DNA of 33,712 bases from a virus. Below are positions 3,627-20,519 of the stretch, piece by piece. The stretch lies in the IMG/VR virus record IMGVR_UViG_3300005838_000003; one strand, 5' to 3'. The notes below the pieces were generated by a model. That model was not told the origin of the DNA, made no database searches, and worked only from the letters and a program-made list of their open reading frames with translations. A program made the translations under genes and the position numbers. Position 1 is the stretch's first letter. Every line of letters begins with the position of its first letter.

Positions 3627-3637
3627 TACGTTATATA
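3627..3637 (+). promoter_or_regulatory. Late box TACGTTATATA (copy 1 of 5), putative phage-sigma-dependent promoter core
   Basis: ACG at 3628 lies 13 nt before ATG 3641 (ParB-like gene). This copy has no TACAAAAT upstream half. Confidence 0.45.
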
Positions 3638-3640
3638 GTT

Positions 3641-4357
3641 ATGATACACCTAGTTAAGACTAATAAAATAAAAACAAACCCAAACAATCCAAGAATCATA
3701 AAGGACAATAAATTTAAAAAATTAGTTAAAAGTATTAAATATTTTCCTGAAATGTTAAAATTAAGACCTATTGTAGTCAACAAAGAAATGGTAGTACTTG
3801 GTGGGAATATGAGATTAAAGGCTTGTATTGATGCTGGACTAAAAGAAATCTGGGTAGCTAAGGCTGAGGATTTAACACCAGAACAAGAACAAGAATTTAT
3901 TATAAAAGATAATGTAAGTTTTGGAGAATGGGATTGGGATATAATTGCTAATGATTGGGACACTCAAGAAATAGAGGATTGGGGAGTTGATTTAATATTT
4001 TTTGACAAAAAAGAAGATGAATTAGATGAGAAATATTCTGAAAAAATAGGTCAAGTTACTTATGAACCTAAAGAATCAAATCATATACCAACTGATTTAT
4101 TTATAAAAGAAACTAAATTTGATAATGATATTGAAAAAATACAAAATAAAGAAATAAAAGAATTGTTAAAATTAAGAACTGCTTTTTTTACTAAGTTTAA
4201 ATTTTCAAAAATAGCTGACTATTATGCTTATCAAGCTAATGAGGAAGAAAAAAGAATATTTGAAAAGTTAGCATTAGTTTTATTAGATAAACATCAACTA
4301 ATAGAGAATGGATTTTCAGATTTAATAGAGGAACTAGGACATAAAGACTATGAATAA
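3641..4357 (+). CDS. ParB/Srx-fold N-terminal domain protein, 238 aa
   Basis: KTNPNNPRII and LRPIVVNKEMVVLGGNMRLKACIDAGLKEIWV match the NPR and GGxxR boxes. A W/D/E-rich linker FGEWDWDIIANDWDTQEIEDWGVD follows, like the linker preceding the methylase in ParB-methyltransferase fusions (recalled, not searched). No methylase domain is present. Confidence 0.85.
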   Translation: MIHLVKTNKIKTNPNNPRIIKDNKFKKLVKSIKYFPEMLKLRPIVVNKEMVVLGGNMRLKACIDAGLKEIWVAKAEDLTPEQEQEFIIKDNVSFGEWDWDIIANDWDTQEIEDWGVDLIFFDKKEDELDEKYSEKIGQVTYEPKESNHIPTDLFIKETKFDNDIEKIQNKEIKELLKLRTAFFTKFKFSKIADYYAYQANEEEKRIFEKLALVLLDKHQLIENGFSDLIEELGHKDYE

Positions 4358-5186
4358 AAAAATAAATACAATTTATATAATATCAAAAGGCAGACCAAAT
4401 TGTCGTACTGCTAAAACATTAACCAAAATGAATTATAAGGGTGATTGGTTTATTGTTTGTGGCAATAATGATGAAACTATTGAAAAATACAAATCAAACT
4501 GGGGAGAAGATAGAATTTTAATTTTCGATTGGTATGATGAAGTAAAAAAAAGTGATTTATTAGATAATTTTGGAGTAGAAAAAATGTCAAGTGGAGCTGT
4601 GCCTGTAAGAAATGCAACAAGAACTATTGCAGAAAATAGAGGAGAAATAAGACATTGGCAATTTGATGATGATTATAGTTCATTTTATCATATTAAAGAT
4701 AATAAGAAAAATTGGTTTAAATTAAATGGAGAACAATTTGAAAAGGAAATATATAAATTAGCAGAGTATGCAGATAGATGCAAATTAGCAAATATAGGTT
4801 TTGCAGTTGCTTCTGATACAAGACCTGAAATGATACATAATGTAGGACACAGAGTTTTTAATGCTCATAATATGCCAACAGATTTAAACTTATTTACTGA
4901 GTGGAAAAGCAGAATGAATGATGATTTAATAAATGCTATTGAAACTTATAGAAAAGGTGATTACGAATTATTTGTAAAATATATGAATATACAAATGCCA
5001 CCAACTCAATCTGAAGGTGGAGGAAATACAGATATATATTTATTAGATGGTACTGTAAGAAAAGCTGCGTATGCTATTATGATAGAACCTAAAAATGTTA
5101 AGTTAACTATAATGCACGGAAGGTATCATCATAGAGCAAATTGGTCAGGAATCATTCCTAAAGTTATACACAGCAAATATGCTTAA
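4350..5186 (+). CDS. Hypothetical protein, 278 aa; candidate GT-A-type glycosyltransferase
   Basis: N-terminal strand-like TIYIISKGRPN and an acidic WQFDDDYSSF (DxD-like) about 100 aa later. It overlaps both neighbours by 8 nt. The fold assignment is a guess; the ORF itself is solid. Confidence 0.35.
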   Translation: MNKKINTIYIISKGRPNCRTAKTLTKMNYKGDWFIVCGNNDETIEKYKSNWGEDRILIFDWYDEVKKSDLLDNFGVEKMSSGAVPVRNATRTIAENRGEIRHWQFDDDYSSFYHIKDNKKNWFKLNGEQFEKEIYKLAEYADRCKLANIGFAVASDTRPEMIHNVGHRVFNAHNMPTDLNLFTEWKSRMNDDLINAIETYRKGDYELFVKYMNIQMPPTQSEGGGNTDIYLLDGTVRKAAYAIMIEPKNVKLTIMHGRYHHRANWSGIIPKVIHSKYA

Positions 5187-6279
5187 AGTAGATTATTTAA
5201 TTGTAGGTGCAGGATTTTATGGTTCTATTTTAGCTTATAATGCTAAAAAAAAAGGATATAAATGCTTAGTAATAGATAAAAGAAATCATATTGCAGGTAA
5301 TTGCTATACCTTTACTAAAGATAATATTGATTTCCATAAATATGGTCCTCATATATTTCATACAGATGACAAAGAAGTCTGGGAATTTATAAATAAGTTT
5401 ACCGATTTTAATAATTATATTAATTCTCCGTTAGCAGTATATAAAAAAAAATTATATAATTTGCCATTTAATATGAATACGTTTTATCAATTATTTAATA
5501 CATACAATATTGATGAAATAAATAATATTTTAATTAAAGAAAAAGAAAAATATAAAAATATAAATCCAAGCAATTTAGAAGAACAAGCATTAAAATTAGT
5601 TGGTGATACTGTTTATAATACTTTAATAAAAGGATATACAGAAAAACAATGGGGTAGAAACTGCACTGATTTACCTGCTTTTATAATTAAAAGATTGCCA
5701 GTTAGATACACATTTGACAATAATTATTTTAATGATAGGTTTCAAGGAATCCCAATAAATGGATACACCCCTATATTTAAAAAACTATTAGAAGGAATAG
5801 AAGTAAAATTAGACACAAGTTATAAAGAAATAAAAGATAAGATTCAATATAAAAAATTAATTTATACAGGAATGATAGATGAATTCTATGATTTTTGTTT
5901 TGGTAAATTAGAGTATAGAAGTTTAAACTTTAAACATAAGACATTAGATACTAAAAATTATCAAGGCAATGCAGTAATAAATTATACAGAAAAATCAATA
6001 CCTTACACAAGAATTATTGAACATAAACATTTTAATAAAACTAAAGAATCAGATAAAACAATAATAAGTTACGAATACTCTGAAGAATATAATGGAACTA
6101 ATGATGCTTACTATCCTATTGGATTAAATAAAAATAAAATAATATATAATAAATACAAAGAATTATCTAAAGAAAATCCTAATATTATATTTGGAGGTAG
6201 ATTAGGAGATTATGCTTACTATGATATGGATGATATTATTAAAAAAGCATTAGATAAATCTAAAGAAATATTAAATTAA
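5179..6279 (+). CDS. glf: UDP-galactopyranose mutase
   Basis: DYLIVGAGFYGS (FAD Rossmann), GPHIFHT, SPLAVYKKKLYNLPFNMNTF, IKGYTEKQWGR, LPAFIIKRLPVRYTFDNNYFNDRFQGIP, LEYRSL, QGNAVINYT..PYTRIIEHKHF and FGGRLGDYAYYDMDD are co-linear with bacterial Glf as I recall it. Confidence 0.95.
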   Translation: MLKVDYLIVGAGFYGSILAYNAKKKGYKCLVIDKRNHIAGNCYTFTKDNIDFHKYGPHIFHTDDKEVWEFINKFTDFNNYINSPLAVYKKKLYNLPFNMNTFYQLFNTYNIDEINNILIKEKEKYKNINPSNLEEQALKLVGDTVYNTLIKGYTEKQWGRNCTDLPAFIIKRLPVRYTFDNNYFNDRFQGIPINGYTPIFKKLLEGIEVKLDTSYKEIKDKIQYKKLIYTGMIDEFYDFCFGKLEYRSLNFKHKTLDTKNYQGNAVINYTEKSIPYTRIIEHKHFNKTKESDKTIISYEYSEEYNGTNDAYYPIGLNKNKIIYNKYKELSKENPNIIFGGRLGDYAYYDMDDIIKKALDKSKEILN

Positions 6280-6281
6280 CT

Positions 6282-6653
6282 ATGAACAAAACCGAACACC
6301 ATAAAAAAGCATTATTAGAAGCACTTAGAAAAAGTTTAGGAATAGTAACAAATGCCTGTGAAAGAGTAGATGTAGGAAGAACAACATATTATGAATGGTA
6401 TAATAATGATGAGGATTTTAGAACTAAAGTAGATGATTTACAAAATATAGCTTTAGACTTTGCTGAAAGCCAACTACATAAACAGATAGCAAAACAATCA
6501 ACTGCAGCTACTATTTTTTATTTAAAAACAAAAGGAAAGAAAAGAGGATATATAGAACGTCAAGAAATCACAGGAGCAGATGGAGTGCCTACTAATTTTA
6601 AAATTGAGATAATTGACAAAACAGAAGATGTCCGAACTCCCGATACAGACTAA
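6282..6653 (+). CDS. terS: Terminase small subunit (HTH type)
   Basis: LGIVTNACERVDVGRTTYYEWYNNDEDFRTKVDDLQNIALDFAESQL...AATIFYLKTKGKKRGY is the typical HTH small-terminase pattern. It sits directly upstream of, and overlaps, terL. Confidence 0.75.
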   Translation: MNKTEHHKKALLEALRKSLGIVTNACERVDVGRTTYYEWYNNDEDFRTKVDDLQNIALDFAESQLHKQIAKQSTAATIFYLKTKGKKRGYIERQEITGADGVPTNFKIEIIDKTEDVRTPDTD

Positions 6654-7791
6654 TATTGTTTATAAACATCTTGTAAATAGTAATAAAAAAATAGTTGTAG
6701 AACAAGGGGGTACTCGTTCAGGTAAAACATATAATATTCTTTTATTTATAATATTTTACTATTGTTTTAATAATACAGGTAAAATTATAACTATCTGTCG
6801 TAAAACATTTCCAAGTTTACGAGCAACAGTATTAAGAGATTTTTTACAGATACTTAGAAATAAAAAAATATACAAAGAGCAATTTCATAATAAATCAAAT
6901 TCAGAATATAATTTATTTGGAAACCTTATTGAGTTTACTTCACTTGACCAATCACAAAAGATTAGAGGAAGGAAAAGGGATTTACTTTTTATTAATGAAG
7001 CTAACGAACTTTACTGGGAAGACTGGCAGCAGCTTATCTTTAGAACTCAAGAGAGAGTAATATTAGATTTCAACCCATCAGATGAGTACCATTGGATATA
7101 CGATAAGATATTACCAAGAGAAGACTGTGAGTTTCATAAAACAACTTACTTAGACAATCCTTTTATAGAAGATGTAATAAGACAAGAAATTGAAAGACTA
7201 AAAGAAACAGACGACCAATATTGGCAGATTTATGGATTAGGAGAAAGGGCATCAAGTATTAATACAATATTTAAATATGTTGAGATTAAACAAATACCTA
7301 TTGATGCTAAGTTAATAGCATACGGAATGGACTTTGGTTACTCAACTGACCCAACTACCCTTGTATCAGTTCATAAGAGTAATTATGACCTGTATATAAA
7401 AGAATATTTATACAGAACGCAAATGACAACGCAAGACATTAATGTATTTCTAAAAGAACAAAACCTATTAAGAAATCCTATCTATGCTGATTCTGCTGAA
7501 CCTCGTTTAATTGCTGAACTTAGAAGAATGGGTCATAATATATTTCCAAGTTTAAAAGGACCAGATTCAATAAGAGCAGGAATTGATTTATTAAAAAGAT
7601 ATAAATTACACATCACATCCGACTCAACAAATGCTATACTTGAATTTAGAAACTATAAATGGAAAGAAGATAGAAGTGGCAAATTAATTAACGTTCCTGA
7701 AGATAAACATAATCATATAATCGACCCTTGTCGCTATGCTACTTACTCTTTATTATCAAGACCAAACTTTGGGAAGTATGCCATACAATAA
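6628..7791 (+). CDS. terL: Terminase large subunit (PBSX/Terminase_3-like)
   Basis: Walker A GGTRSGKT and Walker B LLFINEANE. Nuclease acidic motifs GMDFGYSTDPT, IYADSAEPRLI and HIIDPCRYA. ATG 6628 preferred over the track's TTG 6613. Confidence 0.93.
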   Translation: MSELPIQTNIVYKHLVNSNKKIVVEQGGTRSGKTYNILLFIIFYYCFNNTGKIITICRKTFPSLRATVLRDFLQILRNKKIYKEQFHNKSNSEYNLFGNLIEFTSLDQSQKIRGRKRDLLFINEANELYWEDWQQLIFRTQERVILDFNPSDEYHWIYDKILPREDCEFHKTTYLDNPFIEDVIRQEIERLKETDDQYWQIYGLGERASSINTIFKYVEIKQIPIDAKLIAYGMDFGYSTDPTTLVSVHKSNYDLYIKEYLYRTQMTTQDINVFLKEQNLLRNPIYADSAEPRLIAELRRMGHNIFPSLKGPDSIRAGIDLLKRYKLHITSDSTNAILEFRNYKWKEDRSGKLINVPEDKHNHIIDPCRYATYSLLSRPNFGKYAIQ

Positions 7792-7903
7792 AACTTGTAA
7801 AAAATGTAATAATGAGTATAGTTATATAGGTTCAGCACAGAATGGTTTTATGTGGTATTGTAGAAAATGTAACCATATAGAGTGGGCACCTAACAAAAAA
7901 TAA
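7778..7903 (+). CDS. Mini-ORF, 41 aa, zinc-ribbon-like (CKKC...CRKC)
   Basis: Translated manually: MPYNKTCKKCNNEYSYIGSAQNGFMWYCRKCNHIEWAPNKK. Its ATG lies 14 nt inside the terL 3' end in another frame. Two CxxC pairs. Confidence 0.45.
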   Translation: MPYNKTCKKCNNEYSYIGSAQNGFMWYCRKCNHIEWAPNKK

Positions 7904-7910
7904 CCAATAT

Positions 7911-7983
7911 ATTTTTTAGTTTAATATATTTTATATATATTTGTTGTATATCAATAATTAAGTTAATATAAAAAACAAACAAA
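7911..7983 (+). promoter_or_regulatory. Promoter-leader repeat, copy A (contains TATATTTG at 7936-7943)
   Basis: Aligns by eye with 8861-8932. Shared blocks are TTTAGTTTAATATAT, TATATTTG and AGTTAATATAAAA..AACAAACAAA immediately before the ATG. Confidence 0.6.
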
Positions 7984-8145
7984 ATGGATGTATATAAAAA
8001 CGCAAAGTTAATTGGAAAAGCAATAGGGAATTTAGAATCTCTTAAAAAATATGCTGACTTACCAGCTTATCAAAAAGAGTGGCTAAAAGACGCTTTAAAT
8101 GCTATTAAGTTAGTTGATTATATTAACCTACAAGATAATTTTTAA
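7984..8145 (+). CDS. Mini-ORF, 53 aa (MDVYKNAKLIGKAIGNLESLKKYADLPAYQKEWLKDALNAIKLVDYINLQDNF)
   Basis: Translated manually. It is the first ORF after promoter-leader copy A and ends 1 nt before ATG 8147. Confidence 0.55.
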   Translation: MDVYKNAKLIGKAIGNLESLKKYADLPAYQKEWLKDALNAIKLVDYINLQDNF

Positions 8146-8146
8146 A

Positions 8147-8419
8147 ATGACAGATAAAAAACAAATTGAAGAATTAGAAAAACAATTAGCAGCAGCTAAA
8201 AAACACCATTACGTTTATGATACTCATTCATTACATTGCTCAGATGGTGAACTCTATATGTATCATAGCGGATTTGAAGATGAGGAGAAGTGCCTTGTAA
8301 TTAACGTAGAGCAGCTTTTTAAAGACTTACCCTTCATTGTGAGCCAAGTAACTAAAGAGAACGCAAAGATGCAGGAGATGTACTTAAACAGCCTTAAAGA
8401 ATCATTAAAAGAATTATGA
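8147..8419 (+). CDS. Hypothetical protein, 90 aa from ATG 8147
   Basis: The track ORF starts at TTG 8114, inside the preceding mini-ORF. The in-frame ATG 8147 (MTDKKQIEE...) fits the gene packing. Confidence 0.65.
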   Translation: MTDKKQIEELEKQLAAAKKHHYVYDTHSLHCSDGELYMYHSGFEDEEKCLVINVEQLFKDLPFIVSQVTKENAKMQEMYLNSLKESLKEL

Positions 8420-8601
8420 GACCAATGAGAGAAATAGGGAGATTAATAACAGCATTTTTTAATCCTTCACCTTCTGGTAATTTTTGGATAAGGGTAAACA
8501 AAAAAATGAAAACCCAAGAAGATAAAAATAATTTTATATATTCAACTATTGAATTATTAAATTTAGAAATTGAGGTAGATGAACAAAATACAGAATACTA
8601 A
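8416..8601 (+). CDS. Hypothetical protein, 61 aa
   Basis: ORF track; ATGA overlap with the upstream gene. Confidence 0.55.
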   Translation: MRPMREIGRLITAFFNPSPSGNFWIRVNKKMKTQEDKNNFIYSTIELLNLEIEVDEQNTEY

Positions 8602-9207: not shown

Positions 9208-9209
9208 TT

Positions 9210-9491: not shown

Positions 9492-9494
9492 AAT

Positions 9495-9866: not shown

Positions 9867-9896
9867 AGGTGCTTAGAAATAAGCACCTTTTTTTTT
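9867..9896 (+). terminator. Rho-independent terminator
   Basis: AGGTGCTTA-GAAA-TAAGCACCT forms a perfect 9-bp stem with a GAAA loop, followed by a run of T to 9896. Confidence 0.9.
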
Positions 9897-9928
9897 ACAT
9901 TAAATTCTCTAATTAAATACGTTATATA
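9896..9928 (+). promoter_or_regulatory. Late box copy 2: TACATTAA-N15-ACGTTATATA
   Basis: ACG at 9919 lies 13 nt before ATG 9932, immediately downstream of the terminator. The upstream half is degenerate and spaced 15 rather than 12 nt. Confidence 0.5.
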
Positions 9929-9931
9929 AAT

Positions 9932-10582
9932 ATGGAAGTTAAATTAACAATACCAAATAATTTAAGTGAGATTACACTTAAGCAATATAAAAAATACCTA
10001 ATAATAGGTGAACAAAATGATGATGTTAATTTCATACAAGCTAAGATGATTGAAATATTCTGTGGTATTAGTCATAAACTTGCAACGATGATGAAATACT
10101 CAGACGTTGAAGAAATTACAGGAACCATTAATAAAATGTTTTTACAAAAACCTAAATTAGTAACCACATTTAAAATGAATGGAAAAGAATATGGTTTTAT
10201 TCCTGATTTAGATGATATGACTTTAGGAGAATATATTGATTTGGATTCTTATTCAGGTGATTATGAAAATATAGAAGTTGCAATGAATGTTTTATATAGA
10301 CCTATTGAAGCAAAACTAAATGGCAAATATTCAATTAAGAAATATAATCCTGAAACAAAAAATGAAATGTTAGAGATGCCAATGGATGCAGTTATTAGTT
10401 CTTTGTTTTTTTTTCTGAATTTAGGACTGGAATTGTCGGAAATTACCCTGAACTCTTTGGCGAAGCCACAAATAACACAGTTGGAGGAGTACAAGCATTT
10501 TCAGCAAAATATGGATGGTATCAAAGCCTTTTTGCCTTATCTGCAGGAGACATTATCAGATTTAAAGATATCACTCAACTAA
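9932..10582 (+). CDS. Frame-0 product (216 aa) of a putative tail assembly chaperone-like gene
   Basis: ORF track. First gene of a late unit. It contains a T9 run at 10406-10414 where a second frame opens. Stopping at 10582 leaves an atypical 82-nt gap before the next gene. Confidence 0.6.
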   Translation: MEVKLTIPNNLSEITLKQYKKYLIIGEQNDDVNFIQAKMIEIFCGISHKLATMMKYSDVEEITGTINKMFLQKPKLVTTFKMNGKEYGFIPDLDDMTLGEYIDLDSYSGDYENIEVAMNVLYRPIEAKLNGKYSIKKYNPETKNEMLEMPMDAVISSLFFFLNLGLELSEITLNSLAKPQITQLEEYKHFQQNMDGIKAFLPYLQETLSDLKISLN

Positions 10583-14850: not shown

Positions 14851-14990
14851 TAAAAGATATAATAAGTTTACTTAAAACAGTAAATAATGAAACAGAAAAC
14901 ATTAGAATAGCTAAAGGCAAAAATAAACTTGCTACCAGTTGGTCTGAAGCATTTAAACAAATAAAAGATTCATATAATGGCAATAACTAA
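14847..14990 (+). CDS. Mini-ORF, 47 aa (MIKDIISLLKTVNNETENIRIAKGKNKLATSWSEAFKQIKDSYNGNN)
   Basis: Translated manually. ATGA overlap with the 697-aa gene. It covers the gap 14851-14976 and overlaps the next gene's start by 14 nt. Confidence 0.45.
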   Translation: MIKDIISLLKTVNNETENIRIAKGKNKLATSWSEAFKQIKDSYNGNN

Positions 14991-16920
14991 AGTAATAGTA
15001 ATTAGTGCAGATACTAAAGCAGCACAAAAAGCCCTTGAAGAAGTCAATTTAACTATTGAACAGCAAGAGGATTTATTAAAAGATACTCAAAGACAACTCG
15101 AAAAGCTAGAAGATTTAAGAGATAAAACAAGTAAAAAAGATTTAAATAAAATAAAACAATACAACGAAAAAATAGCTGAAACTAATAAGCATTTAAAAAG
15201 AACTAAAACAAGACTACAAGAAAATAAACAAGAAAGAATTAAATCAAATAAAGTAATAAAAGAATCAGTAAAAGAACAAAGAGAATATACAGGTGTTCTT
15301 GGAATAATTGACAAACAAACTGGTGGTGCTATTTCAGGGTTTCAAGGGTTTACTAAGAGTATAGGTGGTGCAACTAAAGGAATGAAGCTACTTAGAGTGG
15401 CTATTATTGCTACAGGGATTGGAGCTTTAGTTATTGTAATTACATCTTTAATTGCAGCATTTACACAAAGCGAAAAGGGACAGGAAAAACTACAAGTAGG
15501 TTTAAAAATGCTTGGAGCAGTAGTAAAACAAATAATGGATTCATTTGCTGCTTTAGGAGAAGGAATTATAGAAGCAGTTACAAATCCTAAAAAGGCTATA
15601 GAAGACTTGGGTTCTAGTATATTAAAATTTTTAAAAAATCCTATTGACACTGTTGTAGGAGCTTTTAAAGATGCAAAAGAATCAGCAACTAATTTTATAG
15701 AAGAAACAAAAAAAGAAATAAATACAATCGGAGAAGTAACAAAGGCAAGACAAAAGGCACATCATATAGAAAGAGATTTACAAGTTGAAAGAGCAGAGGC
15801 TAACAGAGAAATAAACGACATAAGATTACAAGCTGAAGATAGGGAAAAAAATACTGCTGCTCAAAGAATTGTTTTATTAAGAAAAGCACAAAAGATTGAA
15901 GAAGAAATTACTCAAAAAGAAATTTTAGCTAAAAAACTTTTAGTAGATGCTCAAATTCTTGAAATGGAGCAAGGTTTAAATACTATTGAGGCGAAAGATA
16001 AACTTGCTAAAATGCAAGCAGAGTTAATAAACTTAGATACTAAAAAACTTAGAAGTCAAAGATTATTACAAACACAAATTACAACAGCATTAAATGAAGA
16101 AAAAGCAGCAGCAGCAGAAAAGAAAAAAATTGCTGATAAAAAAATAGAAGATGATGCAATAGCAGCACAAAAAGTTATAGATGATGCTAAAACTAAAGAA
16201 CAAGAAAGGTTAGATGGTATAAAAGAAATACAAGATGCATTTAAAGAAGCTGAAGCTGAAAGAAACGCAATAACAGAAGAAGAAAAAGCAACTTTAGAAG
16301 CAGAAAAAGCAATAGCTGATTTAGATAAATTAAATGCAACAGAAGAACAGAAAGCTAAAATTGTTGCTTATTGGAATGGACAAATACAAATAGGCAAAAA
16401 TAAAGATGCTAAAAATGATGAAGCAAGAGATAAGGCAGTTTCTAATGCTAAGTTAGCTATAGCACAACAATCAATGGCATTAATTGGAGAGATTGCAGGT
16501 AGAGGTTCAGCAATAGGAAAAGCTATGGCAATAGGTCAAGCCACAATTTCAGGGATTCAGGGGGTGCAAAACACTTTTGCAACAGCAAATCTAAGTCCTA
16601 TTACCGCAGTATTCCCTGCCTATCCTTATATTCAAGCCTCCATTTCTGGAATATTTAGTGCATTACAAATTAGAAAAATAGCATCTACTAAAGCAGATGG
16701 CAAAGGCGCAACACCAAGTCCAACAGTTAGTGGTGGTGGTGGTGCTGCCCCTATAACCCCATCATTACCTCCTGCATTTAATACTGTTGGAGCAAGTAAT
16801 ACAAATCAATTAGCTTCTGCAATAAGTGGTCAAGCACCTGCTAGAGCATACGTAGTAAGCAATGATGTTACTACTGCACAAGGATTAGAAAGAAATATTG
16901 TTGAAGGAGCAACGATATAA
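14977..16920 (+). CDS. Tape measure-like protein, 647 aa
   Basis: Long K/E-rich coiled-coil stretches. A hydrophobic block LLRVAIIATGIGALVIVITSLIAAF. A Gly/Ala-rich C-terminal part. This is the typical tape-measure architecture. Confidence 0.7.
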   Translation: MAITKVIVISADTKAAQKALEEVNLTIEQQEDLLKDTQRQLEKLEDLRDKTSKKDLNKIKQYNEKIAETNKHLKRTKTRLQENKQERIKSNKVIKESVKEQREYTGVLGIIDKQTGGAISGFQGFTKSIGGATKGMKLLRVAIIATGIGALVIVITSLIAAFTQSEKGQEKLQVGLKMLGAVVKQIMDSFAALGEGIIEAVTNPKKAIEDLGSSILKFLKNPIDTVVGAFKDAKESATNFIEETKKEINTIGEVTKARQKAHHIERDLQVERAEANREINDIRLQAEDREKNTAAQRIVLLRKAQKIEEEITQKEILAKKLLVDAQILEMEQGLNTIEAKDKLAKMQAELINLDTKKLRSQRLLQTQITTALNEEKAAAAEKKKIADKKIEDDAIAAQKVIDDAKTKEQERLDGIKEIQDAFKEAEAERNAITEEEKATLEAEKAIADLDKLNATEEQKAKIVAYWNGQIQIGKNKDAKNDEARDKAVSNAKLAIAQQSMALIGEIAGRGSAIGKAMAIGQATISGIQGVQNTFATANLSPITAVFPAYPYIQASISGIFSALQIRKIASTKADGKGATPSPTVSGGGGAAPITPSLPPAFNTVGASNTNQLASAISGQAPARAYVVSNDVTTAQGLERNIVEGATI

Positions 16921-16921
16921 A

Positions 16922-16951
16922 TACAAAATTAAATTTTAAATACGTTATATT
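16922..16951 (+). promoter_or_regulatory. Late box copy 3: TACAAAAT-N12-ACGTTATATT
   Basis: ACG at 16942 lies 13 nt before ATG 16955 (protease). Confidence 0.55.
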
Positions 16952-16954
16952 ATT

Positions 16955-17554
16955 ATGAGAATTATTGAATTAATCTTAGATGAAGAAGAAGAAGACGCAG
17001 GAATTGAAGCAATAAGCATAGTAGAATCTCCTGCAATAGAGGAGGATTTTATTGCTTTAAATTCTAAAGAAATTAAACTTGCTGAAATCTCAAAAGATAA
17101 AAAATTATTAATGGGTGCTTTGCTTGTTCCTAATAAACCAATATATAGAAAGTCAGGAGAGGATGAGTATTATATATATTTCTCAAAAGATACTATATCA
17201 AAAGCATCTCAATTATATTTAAAAAATGGTAATCAAAACAATTCGACTTTAGAACATCAACATTCTTTAAGTGGATTAACACTTGTAGAATCGTGGATAG
17301 TAGAAGATAAAGAAAAAGATAAAAGTCGTCTATATAATTTAAATGTTCCTGTAGGAACTTGGATGGGCACTGTAAAAGTGAACAACGATGAAGTATGGAA
17401 CGAATACGTTAAGACAAATAAAGTTAAGGGTTTCAGTATCGAAGGATATTTTGCTGATAAAATGGAATCTCCTAAAGAGTCGGTGGAAGAAAAAATGGAG
17501 ACTGAAAATAATAAATTACTTAAATCGATAAAAGAAATCCTTAATGCCAATTAG
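16955..17554 (+). CDS. Prohead protease, XkdF-like
   Basis: ISIVESPAIEEDFIAL, LLVPNKPIYR, STLEHQH and KGFSIEGYF resemble the XkdF-type putative serine protease family. It lies upstream of the scaffold and capsid genes. Confidence 0.65.
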   Translation: MRIIELILDEEEEDAGIEAISIVESPAIEEDFIALNSKEIKLAEISKDKKLLMGALLVPNKPIYRKSGEDEYYIYFSKDTISKASQLYLKNGNQNNSTLEHQHSLSGLTLVESWIVEDKEKDKSRLYNLNVPVGTWMGTVKVNNDEVWNEYVKTNKVKGFSIEGYFADKMESPKESVEEKMETENNKLLKSIKEILNAN

Positions 17555-17726
17555 AAAAATTAGAAGAAATATAGGACCTGGAAGTCAAGGGTATATTCCT
17601 GCTCGTAGTTCTCAAAATGGAGGGCGAAAGGCTTGTTTATGTCCTAACGAAAATACTTATGCACGTGAATGTTGTGATGGTTCTATATGGGCTCAAGGCA
17701 TTGGTGTAATAACTAGAATAAGTTGA
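17544..17726 (+). CDS. Small Cys-rich basic protein, 60 aa, hypothetical
   Basis: ORF track: ...GRKACLCPNENTYARECCDGSIWAQGIG. It overlaps the protease end by 11 nt and is locally GC-richer than its surroundings. Confidence 0.45.
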   Translation: MPIRKIRRNIGPGSQGYIPARSSQNGGRKACLCPNENTYARECCDGSIWAQGIGVITRIS

Positions 17727-17729
17727 AAA

Positions 17730-17759
17730 TACAAAATTTAAAATTAATCACGTTATATA
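17730..17759 (+). promoter_or_regulatory. Late box copy 4: TACAAAAT-N12-ACGTTATATA
   Basis: ACG at 17750 lies 17 nt before ATG 17767 (scaffold). Confidence 0.55.
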
Positions 17760-17766
17760 AATAATT

Positions 17767-18387
17767 ATGAAATCTACTGAAATGTTAAACCAAATCAAGA
17801 CACTTTTAAATATAGAAGTAAAACTTGAAGAAATGAAATTAGAAAACGGTACAAGAGTTGAAGCTGAATCTTTTGAAAAAGGAAAAGAAGTTTTTATCCT
17901 TACAGATGATGAGCGTGTTGCTTTACCTGTAGGGGAATATATTCTTGAAGACTCAAGATTATTAGTTGTAGAAGAAGAAGGAATTATTGGTGATGTTAGA
18001 GAAGTATCTGACGAAGTGCCAGAAAAAGAAGATGAAGAAATTACTTCTGACTTAGAAGAAAAAGAAGCAGAGGTTGGAGATTGGGCAGGAATGGAAAAAA
18101 GAATCCAGAACCTTGAAGATGCAATCGCAGACTTAAAAGGTGATAAAGAAAGTAAAATGGAAGAAGACCTTGAAGAAGAAGTTGAAGGAGTTTTAAAATC
18201 AAGAACAGTAAAAGAAGAATTTACTGAAGTTGAAGAAAAAGTAAAAGAAGAATTATCTCAACCATCTTCACAACCAATTAAACATAGTCCAGAATCTAAA
18301 AAATCAGAAAAGCCAAGAGGATTTTTATATTCTCAAAATAGAACAGGAACAGCTTTAGATAGAGTTTTATCAAGATTAAACAAATAA
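17767..18387 (+). CDS. Scaffolding protein (acidic, helical)
   Basis: Very E/D-rich, for example EVPEKEDEEITSDLEEKEAE and EEDLEEEVEG. It lies between the protease and the major capsid gene. Confidence 0.65.
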   Translation: MKSTEMLNQIKTLLNIEVKLEEMKLENGTRVEAESFEKGKEVFILTDDERVALPVGEYILEDSRLLVVEEEGIIGDVREVSDEVPEKEDEEITSDLEEKEAEVGDWAGMEKRIQNLEDAIADLKGDKESKMEEDLEEEVEGVLKSRTVKEEFTEVEEKVKEELSQPSSQPIKHSPESKKSEKPRGFLYSQNRTGTALDRVLSRLNK

Positions 18388-18408
18388 TTAATAAATAAAT
18401 TTAAAAAA

Positions 18409-18828
18409 ATGAGTACGTACAAATATTTATCAAATGATGAAGTCCGCAACCAAGTTGCACAATCTTATTATACTGCTACAGGAGACATTTCTGAAGCAGA
18501 GTTAGGGAATGACCACAATGTAGCAACAGATGCTTTAACCATCGGTCTACCTTTAATCACATCAGGAAACTTAGGTTGCACTGTTTTCTTTAGAAATACA
18601 GGTGCAGACGCTAACAATACAGTTGCAATTTCACCAAATGCTGCTAATAAAATAATTGGGTCAATTACTTTAGCTGCTTCAGTCGTTGCATCAGGTGGTG
18701 TTTTAGATAAAGATTTTATCAATACAAAAGCAACATCTTTAAAAGGTGATTGGTGTCTTTTAAGAGCAGTTTCATTGACTGAATGGTATATAATTGGAGC
18801 ACAAGGAATTTGGGCATCAGAAGCATAA
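18409..18828 (+). CDS. Small virion protein, 139 aa; possible head decoration or capsid accessory protein
   Basis: It sits immediately upstream of the capsid gene and has a beta-rich Ala/Gly/Thr composition. The function is inferred from position only. Confidence 0.45.
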   Translation: MSTYKYLSNDEVRNQVAQSYYTATGDISEAELGNDHNVATDALTIGLPLITSGNLGCTVFFRNTGADANNTVAISPNAANKIIGSITLAASVVASGGVLDKDFINTKATSLKGDWCLLRAVSLTEWYIIGAQGIWASEA

Positions 18829-18854
18829 TAATTAATTAAATAAAAAATAAAAAA

Positions 18855-19829
18855 ATGAGTAATTTAAAAAAAGTAAATCTTGCGACTGCGGTAAACATCA
18901 CGACTACTTACGCAGGTGAATTTGCAGGTGATTATATCGCTGCTGCTTTACTAAGTGCAAGTACTATCAATGATGGTGGTTTAACTGTAAAAGCAAATAT
19001 TGGGTATAAAGAAGTAATTAAAAAATTAGCTACAAGTGGATTAGTACAGGCTGCAACTTGTGATTTTGACCCAACATCAAATATTACATTAACTGAAAGA
19101 ATTATACAACCAACTGAATTACAAGTTAATTTACAACTTTGTAAAAAAGACTTCGTAAATGACTGGGAAAGTCAGCAAATGGGATTTGGATTAAGTCAAT
19201 CACTTCCTCCAAAATTTTCTGATTTCTTAATTGCTCACGTTGCTGCTGAAGTTGCACAATCTACAGAATTAAATATATGGCAAGGTGATACTGCTGCAGT
19301 TTCTAATAATTCATTTGATGGATTTGAGAAACTAATTGCTGCTGCTGCTGCTGCAGGGGATATTCCTGCAGGTCAACAAATTGCTGCTGCTGCTGTAACT
19401 GCTGCTAATGTCGTTGCTCAATTACATTTAGTTGTAGATGCTATTCCAGATGCTCTTTATGGAAAAGATGGATTAAGAATCTATGTACCAAGTTCAATCG
19501 CTAAATTCTATGTACAAGCGTTAGGTGGATTCTCTGTTGCTGCTACTGCAAATTCAGGGGTTGATGCTAAAGGTACACAATGGTGGAACAATGGTTCTTT
19601 AACTGTTGATGGAGTACAAATCTTTGTTTGTCCAGGAATGAGCGACAATACAATGTATGCTGCCGAAGTTAGTAACCTGTACTTTGGAACTGGTTTATTA
19701 AATAATAACCAAGAAATTAGAGTACTTGATATGGTAGATTTAGATGGAAGCGATAATGTAAGAATGATTATGAGATTTACATCAGGAGTTCAGTTCGGAA
19801 TTGCTTCTGACATCGTTGAATACGCTTAA
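18855..19829 (+). CDS. Major capsid protein
   Basis: 324 aa, placed after protease, scaffold and the small accessory gene. Ala-rich with GC-richer codon usage, and followed by a hairpin. The assignment rests on context and composition. Confidence 0.75.
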   Translation: MSNLKKVNLATAVNITTTYAGEFAGDYIAAALLSASTINDGGLTVKANIGYKEVIKKLATSGLVQAATCDFDPTSNITLTERIIQPTELQVNLQLCKKDFVNDWESQQMGFGLSQSLPPKFSDFLIAHVAAEVAQSTELNIWQGDTAAVSNNSFDGFEKLIAAAAAAGDIPAGQQIAAAAVTAANVVAQLHLVVDAIPDALYGKDGLRIYVPSSIAKFYVQALGGFSVAATANSGVDAKGTQWWNNGSLTVDGVQIFVCPGMSDNTMYAAEVSNLYFGTGLLNNNQEIRVLDMVDLDGSDNVRMIMRFTSGVQFGIASDIVEYA

Positions 19830-19843
19830 TATTAACTAAAATT

Positions 19844-19880
19844 AGGGTAAGTGGGATGAAACTTACTTGCCCTTATTTAT
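19844..19880 (+). terminator. Hairpin after the capsid gene (terminator, attenuator or mRNA-stabilising structure)
   Basis: AGGGTAAGT pairs with ACTTGCCCT (9 bp including one G-U) across a 12-nt loop. The following TATTTAT is only moderately T-rich. Confidence 0.5.
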
Positions 19881-19897
19881 AAATAAAATAAATAACT

Positions 19898-20425
19898 ATG
19901 GCTTGTACATTATCAACAGGGAGAACAGTACCTTGTAAATCAGCCTTCGGTGGCATAAAAACCGTATATTTTGCAGATTTCGGAGCATTAACTGCTGTAA
20001 CTATCGATGCAACAACTAAACAAGTAACTGCTTTAACAGGCAGTCCAACTTGGTATGAATATGATGTAAAAGGAAATTCATCTCTTGAAACTACTGTAAC
20101 AAGTTCAAGAGAAAATGGAACAACTTTTTATACTCAAACTTTAAATTTAACTTTAACTTATTTAGATGCAAAAACTCAAGCAGAAATTCAAGTGCTTGCA
20201 GTTTCGAGACCATATATTGTAGTTGAAGATTATTATGGAAATCAATTCTTATGTGGCTTTGAAAATGGATGTGAACTTATGAGTGGAACTTCTGTTACAG
20301 GAGCTGCTGCAGGAGACCTTTCAGGCTTCACAATGGTGTTTGAAGGAATGGAGGAAACAGCACCATATTTCTTAAATGCTGGATTAGTAACAGGGGCGGT
20401 TACACAAATAGACCCTACTGCATAA
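19898..20425 (+). CDS. Putative major tail (tube) protein, 175 aa
   Basis: The N-terminus CTLSTGRTVPCKSAFGGIKTVYFADF and the size resemble siphophage tube proteins of Bacteroidota phages as I recall them. It is flanked by hairpins, which would fit high expression. Confidence 0.45.
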   Translation: MACTLSTGRTVPCKSAFGGIKTVYFADFGALTAVTIDATTKQVTALTGSPTWYEYDVKGNSSLETTVTSSRENGTTFYTQTLNLTLTYLDAKTQAEIQVLAVSRPYIVVEDYYGNQFLCGFENGCELMSGTSVTGAAAGDLSGFTMVFEGMEETAPYFLNAGLVTGAVTQIDPTA

Positions 20426-20448
20426 TCATATATTATATATTTAAAATT

Positions 20449-20476
20449 AAGCACTCTTATGGGGTGCTTTTTTTTT
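20449..20476 (+). terminator. Rho-independent terminator
   Basis: AAGCACTC-TTATG-GGGTGCTT forms an 8-bp stem with one G-U, followed by a T-run to 20476. Confidence 0.85.
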
Positions 20477-20489
20477 ACCTTTATGTTTG

Positions 20490-20519
20490 TACAAAATAAC
20501 TTATTTAATACGTTATATA
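20490..20519 (+). promoter_or_regulatory. Late box copy 5: TACAAAAT-N12-ACGTTATATA
   Basis: ACG at 20510 lies 14 nt before ATG 20524. Confidence 0.55.

What the first reader, a model, noticed from the sequence alone, without database searches (positions are those of the whole stretch)
3627..20519. Bipartite late motif TACAAAAT-N12-ACGTTATATA at a fixed 13-17 nt from five late start codons; candidate regulon of the phage ECF-like sigma factor
Seen: ACGTTATAT(A/T) occurs at 3628, 9919, 16942, 17750 and 20510. Each copy directly precedes the first gene of a packaging or morphogenesis block: ParB-Glf-terminase, tail/assembly, protease, scaffold-capsid, and portal-fibre. The distance from the A of ACG to the A of ATG is 13, 13, 13, 17 and 14 nt.

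Three copies (16922, 17730, 20490) also have TACAAAAT exactly 12 nt upstream of ACG. The 9896 copy has TACATTAA at 15 nt. The 3627 copy has no upstream half. Two copies sit immediately after strong terminators, so the layout is terminator then motif then gene. Early genes do not have this motif.

Established: ECF sigma promoters typically combine an AAC-type -35 element with a CGT-containing -10 element. Inference: the sigma-like protein encoded in the early block (33161..33658) redirects host core RNAP to these sites, giving a simple early-to-late cascade. The tiny motif-to-ATG distance implies nearly leaderless late mRNAs. Alternatively, the conserved box doubles as an RNA-level translation signal.
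Basis: partly seen in the sequence, partly recalled or inferred. Interest (0 to 1): 0.65.

Follow-up and report, generated by a model that had tools for sequence, protein, structure and literature searches.

The report
Phage sigma-factor late promoters abutting start codons
A marine flavobacterial phage carries five copies of a strict two-part promoter placed 12-16 bases before the first gene of each packaging or virion block, most likely read by the phage's own small ECF-type sigma factor, so the late messages probably have almost no leader.

Summary
ACGTTATAT(A/T) occurs five times, all on the + strand (0.14 expected). Each copy lies 13-17 nt before the ATG that opens a late block, and a position-weight scan finds no sixth site.

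In more than 100 related IMG/VR phage contigs, CGTTATAT and an upstream (A/G)CAAA or TAAAAT element stay fixed while the spacer sequence drifts. I counted 168 copies on the gene strand and none on the other.

ORF 33161-33658 is a divergent two-domain ECF-type sigma factor. Its predicted fold matches about 30 solved ECF sigmas, although it scores below curated Pfam and TIGRFAM cut-offs.

One relative has TGTTATAT at all five late sites. Its sigma differs from the family consensus almost only in the helix expected to read the upstream edge of the -10 box (D68N, K70Q, R71K).

The cultured Nonlabens phage P12024S has a sigma only 21% identical. It uses ACAAA-N14-CGTTA with the C exactly 12 nt before the ATG at six of seven sites.

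With ECF geometry (C at -12), transcription would start on or within 4 nt of the start codon.

Verdict: a phage sigma/late-promoter regulon, which is a known kind. The sigma family and the consensus are new. The late mRNAs are predicted, not shown, to be leaderless.

The parts
3608..3643 (+). Late promoter P1. It has a degenerate -35-like AATAAATA (3608-3615), a 12-nt spacer, the box ACGTTATATA (3628-3637, C of CGT at 3629) and the ATG at 3641. It drives the ParB-like gene, the TAGT-type glycosyltransferase, UDP-galactopyranose mutase, TerS (6282) and TerL (6613).
   Evidence: Exact match. PWM score 18.8 bits, although the matrix was built from other promoter classes. The orthologous P1 sites in relatives keep CGTTATAT.
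9867..9897 (+). Intrinsic-terminator-like hairpin (9867-9888) with a T-run, ending the preceding small-gene unit just upstream of P2.
   Evidence: Terminator scan. The hairpin and T-run are conserved in relatives.
9899..9934 (+). Late promoter P2. It has the -35-like ATTAAATT (9899-9906), the box ACGTTATATA (9919-9928, C at 9920) and the ATG at 9932. It drives the tail/assembly block through the tape-measure gene (14977-16920).
   Evidence: (22.9 bits). The C-to-ATG distance is 12 nt in 14 of 14 distinct orthologous upstream regions.
16922..16957 (+). Late promoter P3. It has TACAAAAT (16922-16929), a 12-nt spacer, the box ACGTTATATT (16942-16951, C at 16943) and the ATG at 16955. It drives the prohead protease gene.
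   Evidence: (36.0 bits). The protease assignment is Pfam Peptidase_S78_2.
17730..17769 (+). Late promoter P4. It has TACAAAAT (17730-17737), a 12-nt spacer, the box ACGTTATATA (17750-17759, C at 17751) and the ATG at 17767, which is 16 nt from the C. It drives the scaffold-like gene, ORF 18409 and the major capsid gene 18855.
   Evidence: (37.2 bits).
20449..20478 (+). Intrinsic-terminator-like hairpin (20449-20469) with a T-run, immediately upstream of P5.
   Evidence: Terminator scan. It is conserved in relatives.
20490..20526 (+). Late promoter P5. It has TACAAAAT (20490-20497), a 12-nt spacer, the box ACGTTATATA (20510-20519, C at 20511) and the ATG at 20524, which is 13 nt from the C. 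It drives ORF 20524, the portal gene (20955), ORF 22868 and the tail fibre gene (23457).
   Evidence: (33.0 bits).
33161..33658 (+). Gene for a 165-aa two-domain (sigma2 plus sigma4) ECF-type sigma factor, the proposed reader of P1-P5. It is the last gene of the replication/early block. Its stop codon overlaps the start of the HNH gene, which appears at 63-563 because the window is circular.
   Evidence: There are 1139 homologs, aligned. The AF2 model has mean pLDDT 81. The top ~30 Foldseek PDB hits are all ECF sigmas. TIGR02937 matches at E=5e-6, below its cut-off. Pfam Sigma70_r2 is also below its cut-off.
32258..33151 (+). Upstream part of the operon that contains the sigma gene. It comprises a terminator-like hairpin (32258-32280), a sigmaA-like box TATATTTA (32291-32298) ending 4 nt before the ATG, and the AAA_25 helicase-like gene (32303-33151). 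This is the likely source of sigma expression from host RNA polymerase.
   Evidence: The hairpin, the box and the 4-5 nt gap to the ATG recur in most of the 44 distinct upstream regions recovered from relatives.

Best explanation
The five sites are late promoters of a roughly 33.6-kb circular phage of marine Flavobacteriaceae.

Proposed cascade. Host RNA polymerase with the host primary sigma transcribes the early and replication genes from TATATTTG-type promoters. One of these units ends with a small phage-encoded ECF-type sigma factor (33161-33658). This sigma then binds host core polymerase and directs it to a stringent two-part promoter. The promoter has a -35-like (T)ACAAAAT, or a weaker ATAAAT, about 15 nt upstream of CGTTATAT. 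It occurs only in front of the packaging, tail, protease, scaffold/capsid and portal/fibre blocks.

Predicted start sites. In solved ECF open complexes the cGTT of the -10 box occupies positions -12 to -9. On that geometry transcription would start 12 nt after the C. That is the A of the ATG at P1, P2 and P3, one base before it at P5, and four bases before it at P4. The first cistron of each late operon would therefore be translated from a leaderless or nearly leaderless mRNA.

What is shown: the motif, its conservation, its position, the sigma fold, and the covariation between sigma and box. What is inferred: that this sigma reads the box, where transcription starts, and that expression is late.
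For: Motif statistics and exclusivity.
- There are 5 copies against 0.14 expected, all on the + strand.
- The PWM separates the five sites (18.8-37.2 bits) from everything else (at most 3.2 bits).

Phylogenetic footprint.
- In 80 loci of capsid relatives, ACGTTATAT occurs 168 times on the gene strand and 0 times on the other.
- In 132 distinct upstream regions of four orthologous genes, CGTTATAT is exact in 126.
- (A/G)CAAA stays 19 nt upstream of the C while the spacer varies.

A promoter is needed at these positions. Terminators end 10-20 nt upstream of the -35-like box at P2 and P5.

The sites are not host sigmaA promoters. Seven intergenic TATATTTG boxes with 25- to 285-nt gaps to the next listed ORF start serve other genes. 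The host consensus TAnnTTTG lies at -12 to -5 (PMC9723704).

Sigma identity.
- The AF2 model has pLDDT 81 with two helical domains.
- The top ~30 PDB matches are ECF sigmas at probability 1.0, aligned over 160-182 columns for the 165-aa query.
- All 15 NCBIfam hits are ECF or sigma-70-family sigma models.
- The motif AEDIVQEMYIKI and a C-terminal helix-turn-helix are conserved in the alignment. I read these as sigma region 2.2 and sigma4.

Architecture matches ECF promoters. Mtb sigmaH uses GGAACA-N17-GTT with G-11, T-10 and T-9 (PMC6411747). Flavobacterial ECF promoters carry CGT in the -10 region (PMC9723704).

Covariation.
- Relative L364/L002 has TGTTATAT at all five late sites and no promoter-type CGTTATAT.
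- Its sigma departs from residues shared by at least 90% of 118 other distinct sigmas only at D68N and R71K.
- At the 80% level, 5 of its 6 departures lie in residues 60-71 (hypergeometric P = 0.0007).
- By motif alignment, D68 corresponds to sigmaH N92, which contacts the -11 base pair.
- Sigmas with D68 and R71 have a CG-type site within 10 kb downstream in 80 of 95 loci. Sigmas with other residues there have one in 0 of 8 loci (Fisher P = 2e-6, not corrected for relatedness).

Distant replication.
- Cultured Nonlabens phage P12024S has a homologous sigma, gp33 (HHalign 93%, 21% identity).
- It has ACAAA-N13/14-CGTTA at six sites found by pattern search, against 0.96 expected. Seven late gene starts carry a CGTTA box.

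Geometry.
- Over all distinct CGTTATA sites in the fetched loci, the C-to-ATG distance is 12 nt in 126, 13 in 35, 14 in 8, 15 in 19 and 16 in 26. The opposite strand has one such site.
- In P12024S the distance is 12 nt at 6 of 7 sites.

Family specificity.
- Of 109 IMG/VR loci with the exact bipartite pattern, 96 are relatives.
- The 84 hits in 596 Gb of cellular genomes are scattered single copies in many unrelated taxa. By my own rough estimate that is about the number expected by chance.
- All 23 TerL loci with at least 7 kb of upstream sequence carry the sigma gene.
Against: - There is no transcript-level evidence of any kind. No start site, timing or dependence on the sigma has been measured.
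- The sigma scores below the curated thresholds of Pfam Sigma70_r2 (16.5 against 24 bits) and TIGR02937 (26.2 against 42.9 bits). It has no significant sequence match in the PDB.
- The -35-like element lacks the canonical GGAAC, and at P1 and P2 it is only ATAAAT-like.
- The invariant box is 8 nt long, longer than usual ECF -10 elements, and this is unexplained.
- The covariation rests on a single lineage, and the residue equivalence to sigmaH is a motif alignment rather than a structure of the complex.
- Co-occurrence of sigma and motif within one phage family is expected for any pair of core features.
- Leaderless mRNAs are only 5.5% of mapped mRNAs in a flavobacterium (PMC9723704).
- P4-class sites have 15-16 nt rather than 12 nt between the box and the ATG, so strict leaderlessness cannot hold for all sites.
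- A host-type box, TATGTTTG, lies at 20482-20489 next to P5. It is not conserved in relatives.
Confidence: 0.75

Rival explanations
1. The boxes are promoters, but a host ECF sigma factor reads them rather than the phage protein. The phage ORF would then do something else, for example act as a decoy or anti-sigma antagonist.
For: Flavobacterial hosts have several ECF sigmas. One mapped host motif class has CGT in the -10 region (PMC9723704).
Against: - The exact bipartite motif is not enriched in cellular genomes. The 84 hits in 596 Gb are scattered single copies in unrelated taxa.
- It is concentrated in this phage family.
- The box variant TGTTATAT goes with substitutions in the phage sigma's predicted DNA-reading helix.
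- Every sufficiently covered relative keeps the sigma gene.
Confidence: 0.07
2. The conserved box acts in the RNA, as a translation-initiation or processing signal in a short 5' UTR. Transcription would start further upstream.
For: - The box is strand-specific and keeps a tight distance to the ATG.
- These genomes lack Shine-Dalgarno sequences, so other upstream signals could matter.
Against: - More than 40 other genes in the window are presumably translated without the box.
- A second element at a fixed distance upstream with a free spacer is promoter-like, not UTR-like.
- At P2 and P5 a terminator leaves no room for another promoter upstream.
- The regions have no RNA structure (z-scores -0.85 to +1.5) and no Rfam match.
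- The box covaries with a DNA-binding sigma helix.
Confidence: 0.07
3. The bipartite element is the binding site of a different phage-encoded late activator, one of the unannotated small ORFs, which recruits host sigmaA polymerase.
For: Many small early ORFs have no recognised family. Activator-dependent late promoters are common in phages (own knowledge).
Against: - Four of the five sites have no TAnnTTTG host -7 box. P5 has an adjacent TATGTTTG, which is not conserved in relatives.
- The element is asymmetric and strictly oriented, and the CGT lies at the position of an ECF -10 box.
- The only recognisable transcription protein in the window is the sigma.
- The distant Nonlabens phage shares the sigma and the architecture.
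Confidence: 0.08
4. The motif is a chance or compositional repeat in an AT-rich genome.
For: The genome is 29% G+C. Matches with two mismatches are at chance level (89 against 73 expected).
Against: - Exact copies number 5 against 0.14 expected.
- All lie on one strand and all precede operon-initial ATGs.
- The motif is conserved in more than 100 relatives while the flanks drift.
Confidence: 0.01

Closest known systems
Late sigma of Salmonella phage 7-11 (SaPh711_gp47) and sigma gp36 of coliphage phiEco32, with their cognate promoters
   Same: In both cases a phage-encoded divergent sigma-70-family protein combines with host core polymerase. It reads a phage-specific consensus found only upstream of middle or late genes. 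Phage 7-11 has eight bipartite sites, GTAAtg-N16-aCTA. PhiEco32 has the single element tAATGTAtA. Start sites lie 6-9 bp from the element (PMC8948821). The phiEco32 holoenzyme structure 9m7y_F is a weak Foldseek match of the model (E=0.03).
   Different: - The host phylum differs: Bacteroidota rather than Enterobacteria.
- There is no detectable sequence similarity. tblastn of the sigma against 50,697 phage genomes finds nothing.
- The consensus is different (ACAAA-N15-CGTTATAT).
- No gp79-like partner was recognised.
- Here the promoter abuts the start codon, so that no 5' UTR is predicted.
Cellular ECF (group 4) sigma factors such as M. tuberculosis SigH/SigE/SigL, E. coli sigmaE and B. subtilis SigW
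   Same: - The architecture is the same two-domain sigma2-sigma4.
- Both use a stringent bipartite promoter with a rigid spacer and a cGTT-type -10 box. SigH uses GGAACA-N17-GTT (PMC6411747).
- The helix ...FLDLKRK aligns with the SigH helix ...FINTYRK that contacts positions -11 to -14 (inference).
   Different: - The protein is phage-encoded.
- It scores below curated family thresholds.
- No anti-sigma partner is evident.
- The -35 element is ACAAA or TAAAAT rather than GGAAC.
- The invariant -10 region is 8 nt long.
Nonlabens (Persicivirga) phages P12024S/L, gp33 annotated only as 'hypothetical protein containing Sigma-70 region 2'
   Same: - The sigma is homologous (HHalign 93%), and the gene sits at the same place, just before the packaging genes.
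- The same architecture, ACAAA-N14-CGTTA with the C 12 nt before the ATG, precedes seven late genes.
   Different: - The capsid is only about 25% identical and the sigma 21%.
- The box is CGTTAATA rather than CGTTATAT.
- I found no published promoter analysis for these phages.
Leaderless mRNAs (for example lambda cI from PRM, and many actinobacterial and archaeal genes; own knowledge)
   Same: The promoter's -10 element lies so close to the ATG that the transcript is expected to begin at or next to the start codon.
   Different: - Here the arrangement is predicted for the first gene of every late operon of a phage.
- In the host family, leaderless mRNAs are about 5.5% of mapped transcripts (PMC9723704).
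- No 5' ends have been mapped.

Membership tests
ECF (group 4) sigma-70-family sigma factors | Two-domain architecture: sigma2 and sigma4 joined by a linker, without regions 1.1 and 3. | tested here: met
   The protein is 165 aa. The AF2 model (pLDDT 81) has two helical domains, 1-75 and 105-164, with a disordered linker. The top ~30 Foldseek PDB hits are ECF sigmas aligned over 160-182 columns at probability 1.0. TM-scores are only about 0.38, probably because the relative orientation of the two domains differs.
ECF (group 4) sigma-70-family sigma factors | Scores above the curated thresholds of the family profiles (Pfam Sigma70_r2 and r4_2; TIGR02937 sigma70-ECF). | tested here: not met
   Sigma70_r2 scores 16.5 bits against a cut-off of 24. 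It matches 12 of 26 homologs, all below the cut-off, and there is no region-4 hit. TIGR02937 scores 26.2 bits against 42.9, at E=5e-6 over the full model length. The profile search against PDB sequences is not significant.
ECF (group 4) sigma-70-family sigma factors | Conserved region 2.2 core-binding motif and a C-terminal helix-turn-helix. | tested here: met
   The alignment of 26 homologs shows the conserved motif AEDIVQEMYIKI, the helix YNYFYIFKTLKSMFLDLKRKE, and the C-terminal segment G.S.A.LSRKT.IPYHSLYNTYRKV. This was judged by inspection against the ECF pattern known from the literature.
ECF (group 4) sigma-70-family sigma factors | Cognate promoter with an AAC-type -35 and a CGT-type -10 at a rigid spacing of about 16-18 bp. 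| tested here: inconclusive
   The -10 CGTT is invariant and the spacing is rigid at 15 +/- 1 nt between ACAAA and CGTT. The -35 is (T/G)ACAAA or ATAAAT, not GGAAC. The Nonlabens phage does have AACAAA. That this protein reads the sites is inferred from covariation.
ECF (group 4) sigma-70-family sigma factors | Co-encoded anti-sigma factor (typical, but not universal). | tested here: inconclusive
   The neighbours are an AAA_25 helicase-like gene upstream and an HNH endonuclease downstream. No anti-sigma domain was recognised in the ORFs scanned. Small unannotated ORFs remain.
ECF (group 4) sigma-70-family sigma factors | Binds core RNA polymerase and confers promoter-specific initiation. | not testable with these tools
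   This needs purified protein and flavobacterial core enzyme.
Phage sigma / late-promoter regulons (phiEco32 and 7-11 type) | The sigma gene lies in the early or middle block, and the consensus element is found only upstream of late (packaging and morphogenesis) genes. | tested here: met
   The sigma gene lies at the end of the replication block. The five sites precede the terminase, tail, protease, capsid and portal blocks and occur nowhere else. The same layout is seen in relatives and in P12024S.
Phage sigma / late-promoter regulons (phiEco32 and 7-11 type) | Late-appearing transcripts start a few bp downstream of the element and depend on the phage sigma. | not testable with these tools
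   No expression data are available for this phage or for P12024S in the library searched.
Leaderless mRNAs | The transcription start coincides with the first base of the start codon. | not testable with these tools
   Only the geometry could be examined. The C of CGT lies 12 nt before the ATG at P1-P3, in 126 of 235 family sites that have a downstream ATG, and in 6 of 7 P12024S sites. In the Mtb sigmaH complex, G, T and T of the -10 box are at -11, -10 and -9.
Bacteroidota sigmaA promoters (-7 box TAnnTTTG) | A TAnnTTTG box 5 nt upstream of the start site, usually with TTTG near -33. | tested here: not met
   Four of the five late sites have no such box, and P5 has only an adjacent, unconserved TATGTTTG at 20482-20489. 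Seven exact TATATTTG boxes lie in other intergenic regions. The consensus position is taken from PMC9723704.

The most novel reading that the evidence does not exclude
The late regulon may consist of truly leaderless mRNAs. The phage sigma's promoter and the start codon would form one fused transcription-translation signal with a fixed 12-nt register. This register is conserved between phage lineages whose capsids are only about 25% identical. The helicase-sigma operon shows the same fusion to a host-type box. If so, this abundant group of marine flavobacterial phages depends on, or actively favours, leaderless translation during infection, in a phylum that already initiates without Shine-Dalgarno pairing. 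The sigma/box pair, including a natural D68N/R71K and C-to-T specificity switch, would also be a ready-made orthogonal expression system for Bacteroidota.
Probability: 0.35. Interest if true: 0.7.

Novelty: new variant of a known kind. Interest (0 to 1): 0.55.

Why it matters
Flavobacteriia are major degraders of algal-bloom carbon, yet almost nothing is known about how their phages time gene expression. This finding gives a complete, testable regulatory circuit for a phage family that is very common in marine metagenomes. The family has more than 1100 sigma clusters and hundreds of IMG/VR contigs.

The circuit has three parts: host-type early promoters, a phage ECF-like sigma, and five late promoters.

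The finding also predicts that the first gene of every late operon is translated without a leader. That would be unusual for the host phylum, and it can be tested directly in the cultured Nonlabens phage P12024S system.

The stringent sigma/promoter pair and its natural specificity variant could serve as orthogonal genetic parts for Bacteroidota, where expression tools are scarce.

Tried and rejected
- Megablast of 25 kb of the window against 50,697 phage genomes found nothing. tblastn of the sigma against the same set also found nothing.
- Profile and single-sequence searches of the sigma against PDB sequences were not significant. The fold comparison was needed to identify the protein.
- The E. 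coli-type -35/-10 scan is at shuffle level (122 against 125, and 73 against 81), as expected for a Bacteroidota host.
- An RNA element was rejected. There is no Rfam match and no structure beyond shuffles.
- I considered a parS-like or other symmetric DNA-binding site. I rejected it because the box is not palindromic and is strictly strand-specific.
- Three routes to the sigma of the TG-variant phage failed. These were two exact-pattern scans of IMG/VR, a TerL-based locus search and the single metagenome scan. A search with one of that contig's own proteins succeeded.
- I looked for an alternative box in MAG-derived contigs whose sigma lacks D68/R71. The candidate hexamer GTAAAT gave no convincing motif.
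- The 13 IMG/VR hits outside the family and the 84 hits in cellular genomes are single sites. The 13 are not followed by an ATG, so they look like chance matches.
- CGTTATAT inside the sigma genes of relatives is only the codons Ser-Leu-Tyr.
- Literature searches found no description of late promoters or sigma function in flavobacterial siphophages.

Full report
**1. The observation**

ACGTTATATW occurs exactly five times, at 3628, 9919, 16942, 17750 and 20510. All copies are on the + strand. The expectation is 0.14, and 0 of 100 dinucleotide-preserving shuffles reach five.

Copies with one or two mismatches are at chance level (89 against 73). The signal is therefore a small set of near-perfect sites, not a compositional bias. 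TACAAAAT alone is not enriched (13 against 8.3), but three copies lie exactly 12 nt upstream of ACG.

The A-to-A distances to the following ATG are 13, 13, 13, 17 and 14 nt. A position-weight matrix built from orthologous sites in relatives scores the five sites at 18.8-37.2 bits. The next best position on either strand scores 3.2 bits.

**2. The genome**

The window is 29% G+C, with all genes on the + strand and no Shine-Dalgarno sequences. Its first 120 nt repeat at its end, so it is a circular or terminally redundant genome of 33,592 bp.

The gene order, is:
- HNH endonuclease (63), small ORFs, exonuclease (2717)
- P1, then ParB-like, TAGT-type glycosyltransferase, UDP-galactopyranose mutase, TerS, TerL
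- small ORFs
- P2, then tail genes up to the tape measure (14977)
- P3, then prohead protease
- P4, then scaffold-like protein, ORF 18409 and the capsid gene (18855)
- P5, then ORF 20524, portal (20955), ORF 22868 and tail fibre (23457)
- endolysin, holin, NinG-like, Erf, an AAA_25 helicase-like gene (32303) and the sigma-like ORF (33161)

The only cultured relatives are Nonlabens phages P12024S/L, with a capsid about 25% identical. Sigma homologs in genome collections lie mostly on short contigs binned with Flavobacteriaceae. The host is therefore inferred to be a marine flavobacterium.

Seven intergenic TATATTTG boxes (611, 1744, 7936, 8886, 27999, 30184, 31057) match the Bacteroidota sigmaA -7 consensus TAnnTTTG. 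They lie 25-285 nt upstream of the next listed ORF start (consensus from PMC9723704). Two distinct promoter types therefore divide the genome.

**3. Conservation**

IMG/VR holds at least 119 contigs with a capsid relative. More than 119 stretches contain the exact bipartite pattern. Of the 109 new loci fetched by that pattern, 96 encode relatives of this phage. The other 13 are single sites not followed by an ATG.

In the 80 capsid loci, ACGTTATAT occurs 168 times on the gene strand and never on the other. I extracted the upstream regions of four orthologous genes without reference to the motif. This gave 132 distinct sequences. CGTTATAT is exact in 126 and has one mismatch in 6. (A/G)CAAA stays 19 nt upstream of the C, while the spacer and flanks drift.

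More distant phages have sigmas only 50-60% identical, yet they keep CGTTATAT (115 copies on the gene strand against 20 on the other). In those phages the upstream element is TAAAAT, ATAAAT or ACAAAAT at the same distance. The weak upstream halves of P1 (AATAAATA, 3608-3615) and P2 (ATTAAATT, 9899-9906) fit that form.

In 596 Gb of bacterial and archaeal genomes, the exact pattern gives 84 scattered single hits in unrelated taxa. By my own rough estimate that is about what chance predicts. The motif therefore does not mark a host regulon.

**4. Why it is a promoter**

Terminator-like hairpins with T-runs end 10-20 nt upstream of the -35-like element at P2 (9867-9888) and P5 (20449-20469). These hairpins are conserved in relatives. 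Transcription of these blocks must therefore restart within about 50 nt, and the only conserved elements there are the two boxes.

Two boxes at a rigid distance with a free spacer, strictly oriented, are the anatomy of a bipartite promoter. The regions have no RNA structure beyond shuffles and no Rfam match. The box is also absent from the more than 40 other genes, which presumably are translated without it. This argues against an RNA-level translation signal.

**5. The sigma**

ORF 33161-33658 has 1139 homologs of 155-173 aa in the metagenomic protein set. JGI names some of them sigma-24 family proteins.

Curated profiles see it only weakly. Pfam Sigma70_r2 scores 16.5 bits against a cut-off of 24. 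TIGR02937 sigma70-ECF scores 26.2 against 42.9 bits, at E=5e-6 over the full model length. All 15 weak NCBIfam hits are ECF or sigma-70-family sigma models. PDB sequence searches are not significant.

The alignment shows AEDIVQEMYIKI, the helix YNYFYIFKTLKSMFLDLKRKE and a C-terminal helix-turn-helix. I read these as sigma region 2.2, region 2.3/2.4 and sigma4. The AlphaFold2 model (pLDDT 81) has two helical domains joined by a disordered linker. Its best ~30 PDB matches are all ECF sigmas: Mtb SigE, SigH and SigL, E. coli sigmaE, AlgU and SigW. They align over 160-182 columns at probability 1.0.

The protein is therefore a divergent ECF-type sigma. No other transcription protein was recognised in the window.

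The sigma gene follows the helicase-like gene. That gene is preceded by a terminator and a sigmaA-like box, TATATTTA. Host polymerase can thus plausibly express the sigma. All 23 TerL loci with at least 7 kb of upstream sequence carry the sigma gene 2.8-6.8 kb upstream of TerL.

**6. Linking the sigma to the box**

One relative (contig IMGVR_UViG_3300035162_000891, loci L002 and L364) has TGTTATAT instead of CGTTATAT at all five late promoters. It has no promoter-type CGTTATAT.

Its sigma is 58% identical to the window's. Among 32 columns conserved in at least 90% of 118 other distinct sigmas, it differs only at D68N and R71K. Among 56 columns conserved in at least 80%, it differs at six. Five of these (K60L, F66Y, D68N, K70Q, R71K) lie in the helix 57-72. 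That helix holds 11 of the 56 conserved columns (hypergeometric P = 0.0007).

I aligned FYIFKTLKSMFLDLKRK with the Mtb SigH segment WLYRITTNTFINTYRKKQR. I recalled that segment from memory, and its numbering agrees with the residues named in PMC6411747. The alignment puts D68 at SigH N92, which hydrogen-bonds to the -11 G:C pair. L67 falls at I91 and K72 at K96, which contacts the -14 phosphate. The substitutions thus sit where the sigma should read the upstream edge of the box, next to the base that changed. This residue equivalence is an inference.

A coarser comparison points the same way. Sigmas with D68 and R71 have a CG-type site within 10 kb downstream in 80 of 95 loci. Most of the exceptions use a TTG start that my pattern missed. 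Sigmas with other residues at these positions have such a site in 0 of 8 loci (Fisher P = 2e-6, not corrected for relatedness).

**7. Independent replication**

Nonlabens phage P12024S encodes gp33 (20595-21074), annotated only as containing Sigma-70 region 2. It is a full-length homolog at 21% identity (HHalign 93%, E=3e-7).

Its genome has ACAAA-N13/14-CGTTA at six sites against 0.96 expected, all on the + strand. Seven gene starts in its capsid, portal, tail and terminase regions carry a CGTTA box.

**8. Predicted start site**

In the SigH open complex the -10 element is G-11, T-10, T-9, after a 17-bp spacer from GGAACA (PMC6411747). The C of cGTT is then at -12, and +1 lies 12 nt after it. 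Flavobacterial ECF-type promoters also carry CGT in the -10 region (PMC9723704).

In the window the C-to-ATG distance is 12 nt at P1, P2 and P3, 13 nt at P5 and 16 nt at P4. Over all distinct CGTTATA sites in the fetched loci, the distance is 12 nt in 126, 13 in 35, 14 in 8, 15 in 19 and 16 in 26. The opposite strand has one such site. In P12024S it is 12 nt at six of seven sites and 11 nt at one.

A register conserved this tightly across such divergence is what one expects if the A of the ATG is the initiating nucleotide. The predicted leaders are 0, 0, 0, 1 and 4 nt. In F. psychrophilum only 5.5% of mapped mRNAs are leaderless, and the median 5' UTR is 24 nt (PMC9723704). This would therefore be a distinctive feature of the phage. 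It remains a prediction.

**9. Comparison with known systems**

The closest validated systems are Salmonella phage 7-11 and coliphage phiEco32. In 7-11, sigma gp47 reads eight bipartite late promoters, GTAAtg-N16-aCTA. In phiEco32, sigma gp36 reads the single element tAATGTAtA. Starts lie 6-9 bp from the element (PMC8948821).

The present case works like these but differs in four ways. The host belongs to a different phylum. The sigma family has no detectable sequence similarity to any sequenced phage outside the Nonlabens pair. The consensus is different. The promoter is fused to the start codon.

I found no paper describing late promoters or sigma function in flavobacterial siphophages.

**10. 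Verdict**

- Confidence that these are late promoters read by the phage sigma: about 0.75.
- Confidence that at least three of the five first cistrons are translated from leaders of 0-1 nt: about 0.5.

The finding is a new variant of a known kind. The cultured P12024S system offers a direct experimental test.

Noticed in passing
window 3641-6279 and 1293-1712: The first late operon begins with a ParB-like protein, a TET-associated-glycosyltransferase-family enzyme (PF20691, E=2e-16) and UDP-galactopyranose mutase (PF03275, E=2e-78), ahead of TerS and TerL. A cytidylyltransferase-like ORF lies in the early region. This looks like a DNA sugar-hypermodification module, possibly using galactofuranose. 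No TET/JBP enzyme or hydroxymethylase was recognised.
   Followed up: no
window 611, 1744, 7936, 8886, 27999, 30184, 31057 (+ strand): Seven intergenic exact TATATTTG boxes match the host sigmaA -7 consensus and serve early genes, small-gene units and the lysis genes. In relatives they lie in a roughly 35-nt cassette..TATATATATTTGTTATATAAT.., that shares GTTATAT with the late box. The 7936 and 8886 copies are duplicates, including their leaders.
   Followed up: partly
window 32258-32305: The helicase-sigma operon is preceded by a terminator and a box, TATATTTA, that ends 4 nt before the ATG. The hairpin, the box and a 4-5 nt gap recur in most of the 44 distinct upstream regions from relatives. 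With the host box at -12 to -5, this operon would also be leaderless.
   Followed up: partly
window 1-120 and 33593-33712: The two ends are identical over 120 nt, so the contig is a circular or terminally redundant genome of 33,592 bp. The sigma stop codon overlaps the HNH endonuclease start codon as ATGA.
   Followed up: yes
L364 (IMGVR_UViG_3300035162_000891, contig 3573-23854): 4234, 11349, 18409, 19222; L002: 11661: This is a natural variant phage with TGTTATAT at all five late promoters. Its sigma carries D68N, K70Q and R71K, a candidate specificity switch.
   Followed up: yes
L271, L273, L274, L276, L278, L280, L370 (mostly MAG-binned contigs): Sigma homologs with FLQMKNK, FLTICKK or FYSKKSK in place of FLDLKRK come from loci with no CGTTATA site at all. 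Their promoter motif was not found.
   Followed up: partly
L190 2563, L193 4855, L216 1708 and others (inside sigma genes of relatives); window 33605 has TCATTATATA: CGTTATAT recurs inside the sigma gene of many relatives. There it is only the codons Ser-Leu-Tyr of the conserved sigma4 helix YSLYNTY, with no -35-like element. It is a coding coincidence.
   Followed up: yes
window 20482-20489: A host-type box, TATGTTTG, lies directly upstream of the -35-like element of P5. It is not conserved in relatives, so it is probably a chance match.
   Followed up: partly
window 1749-2033, 30189-30347, 31054-31281: Three mechanically listed TTG-start ORFs begin inside, or immediately before, TATATTTG promoter boxes. 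They are probably not genes as listed, and the real starts lie downstream.
   Followed up: no
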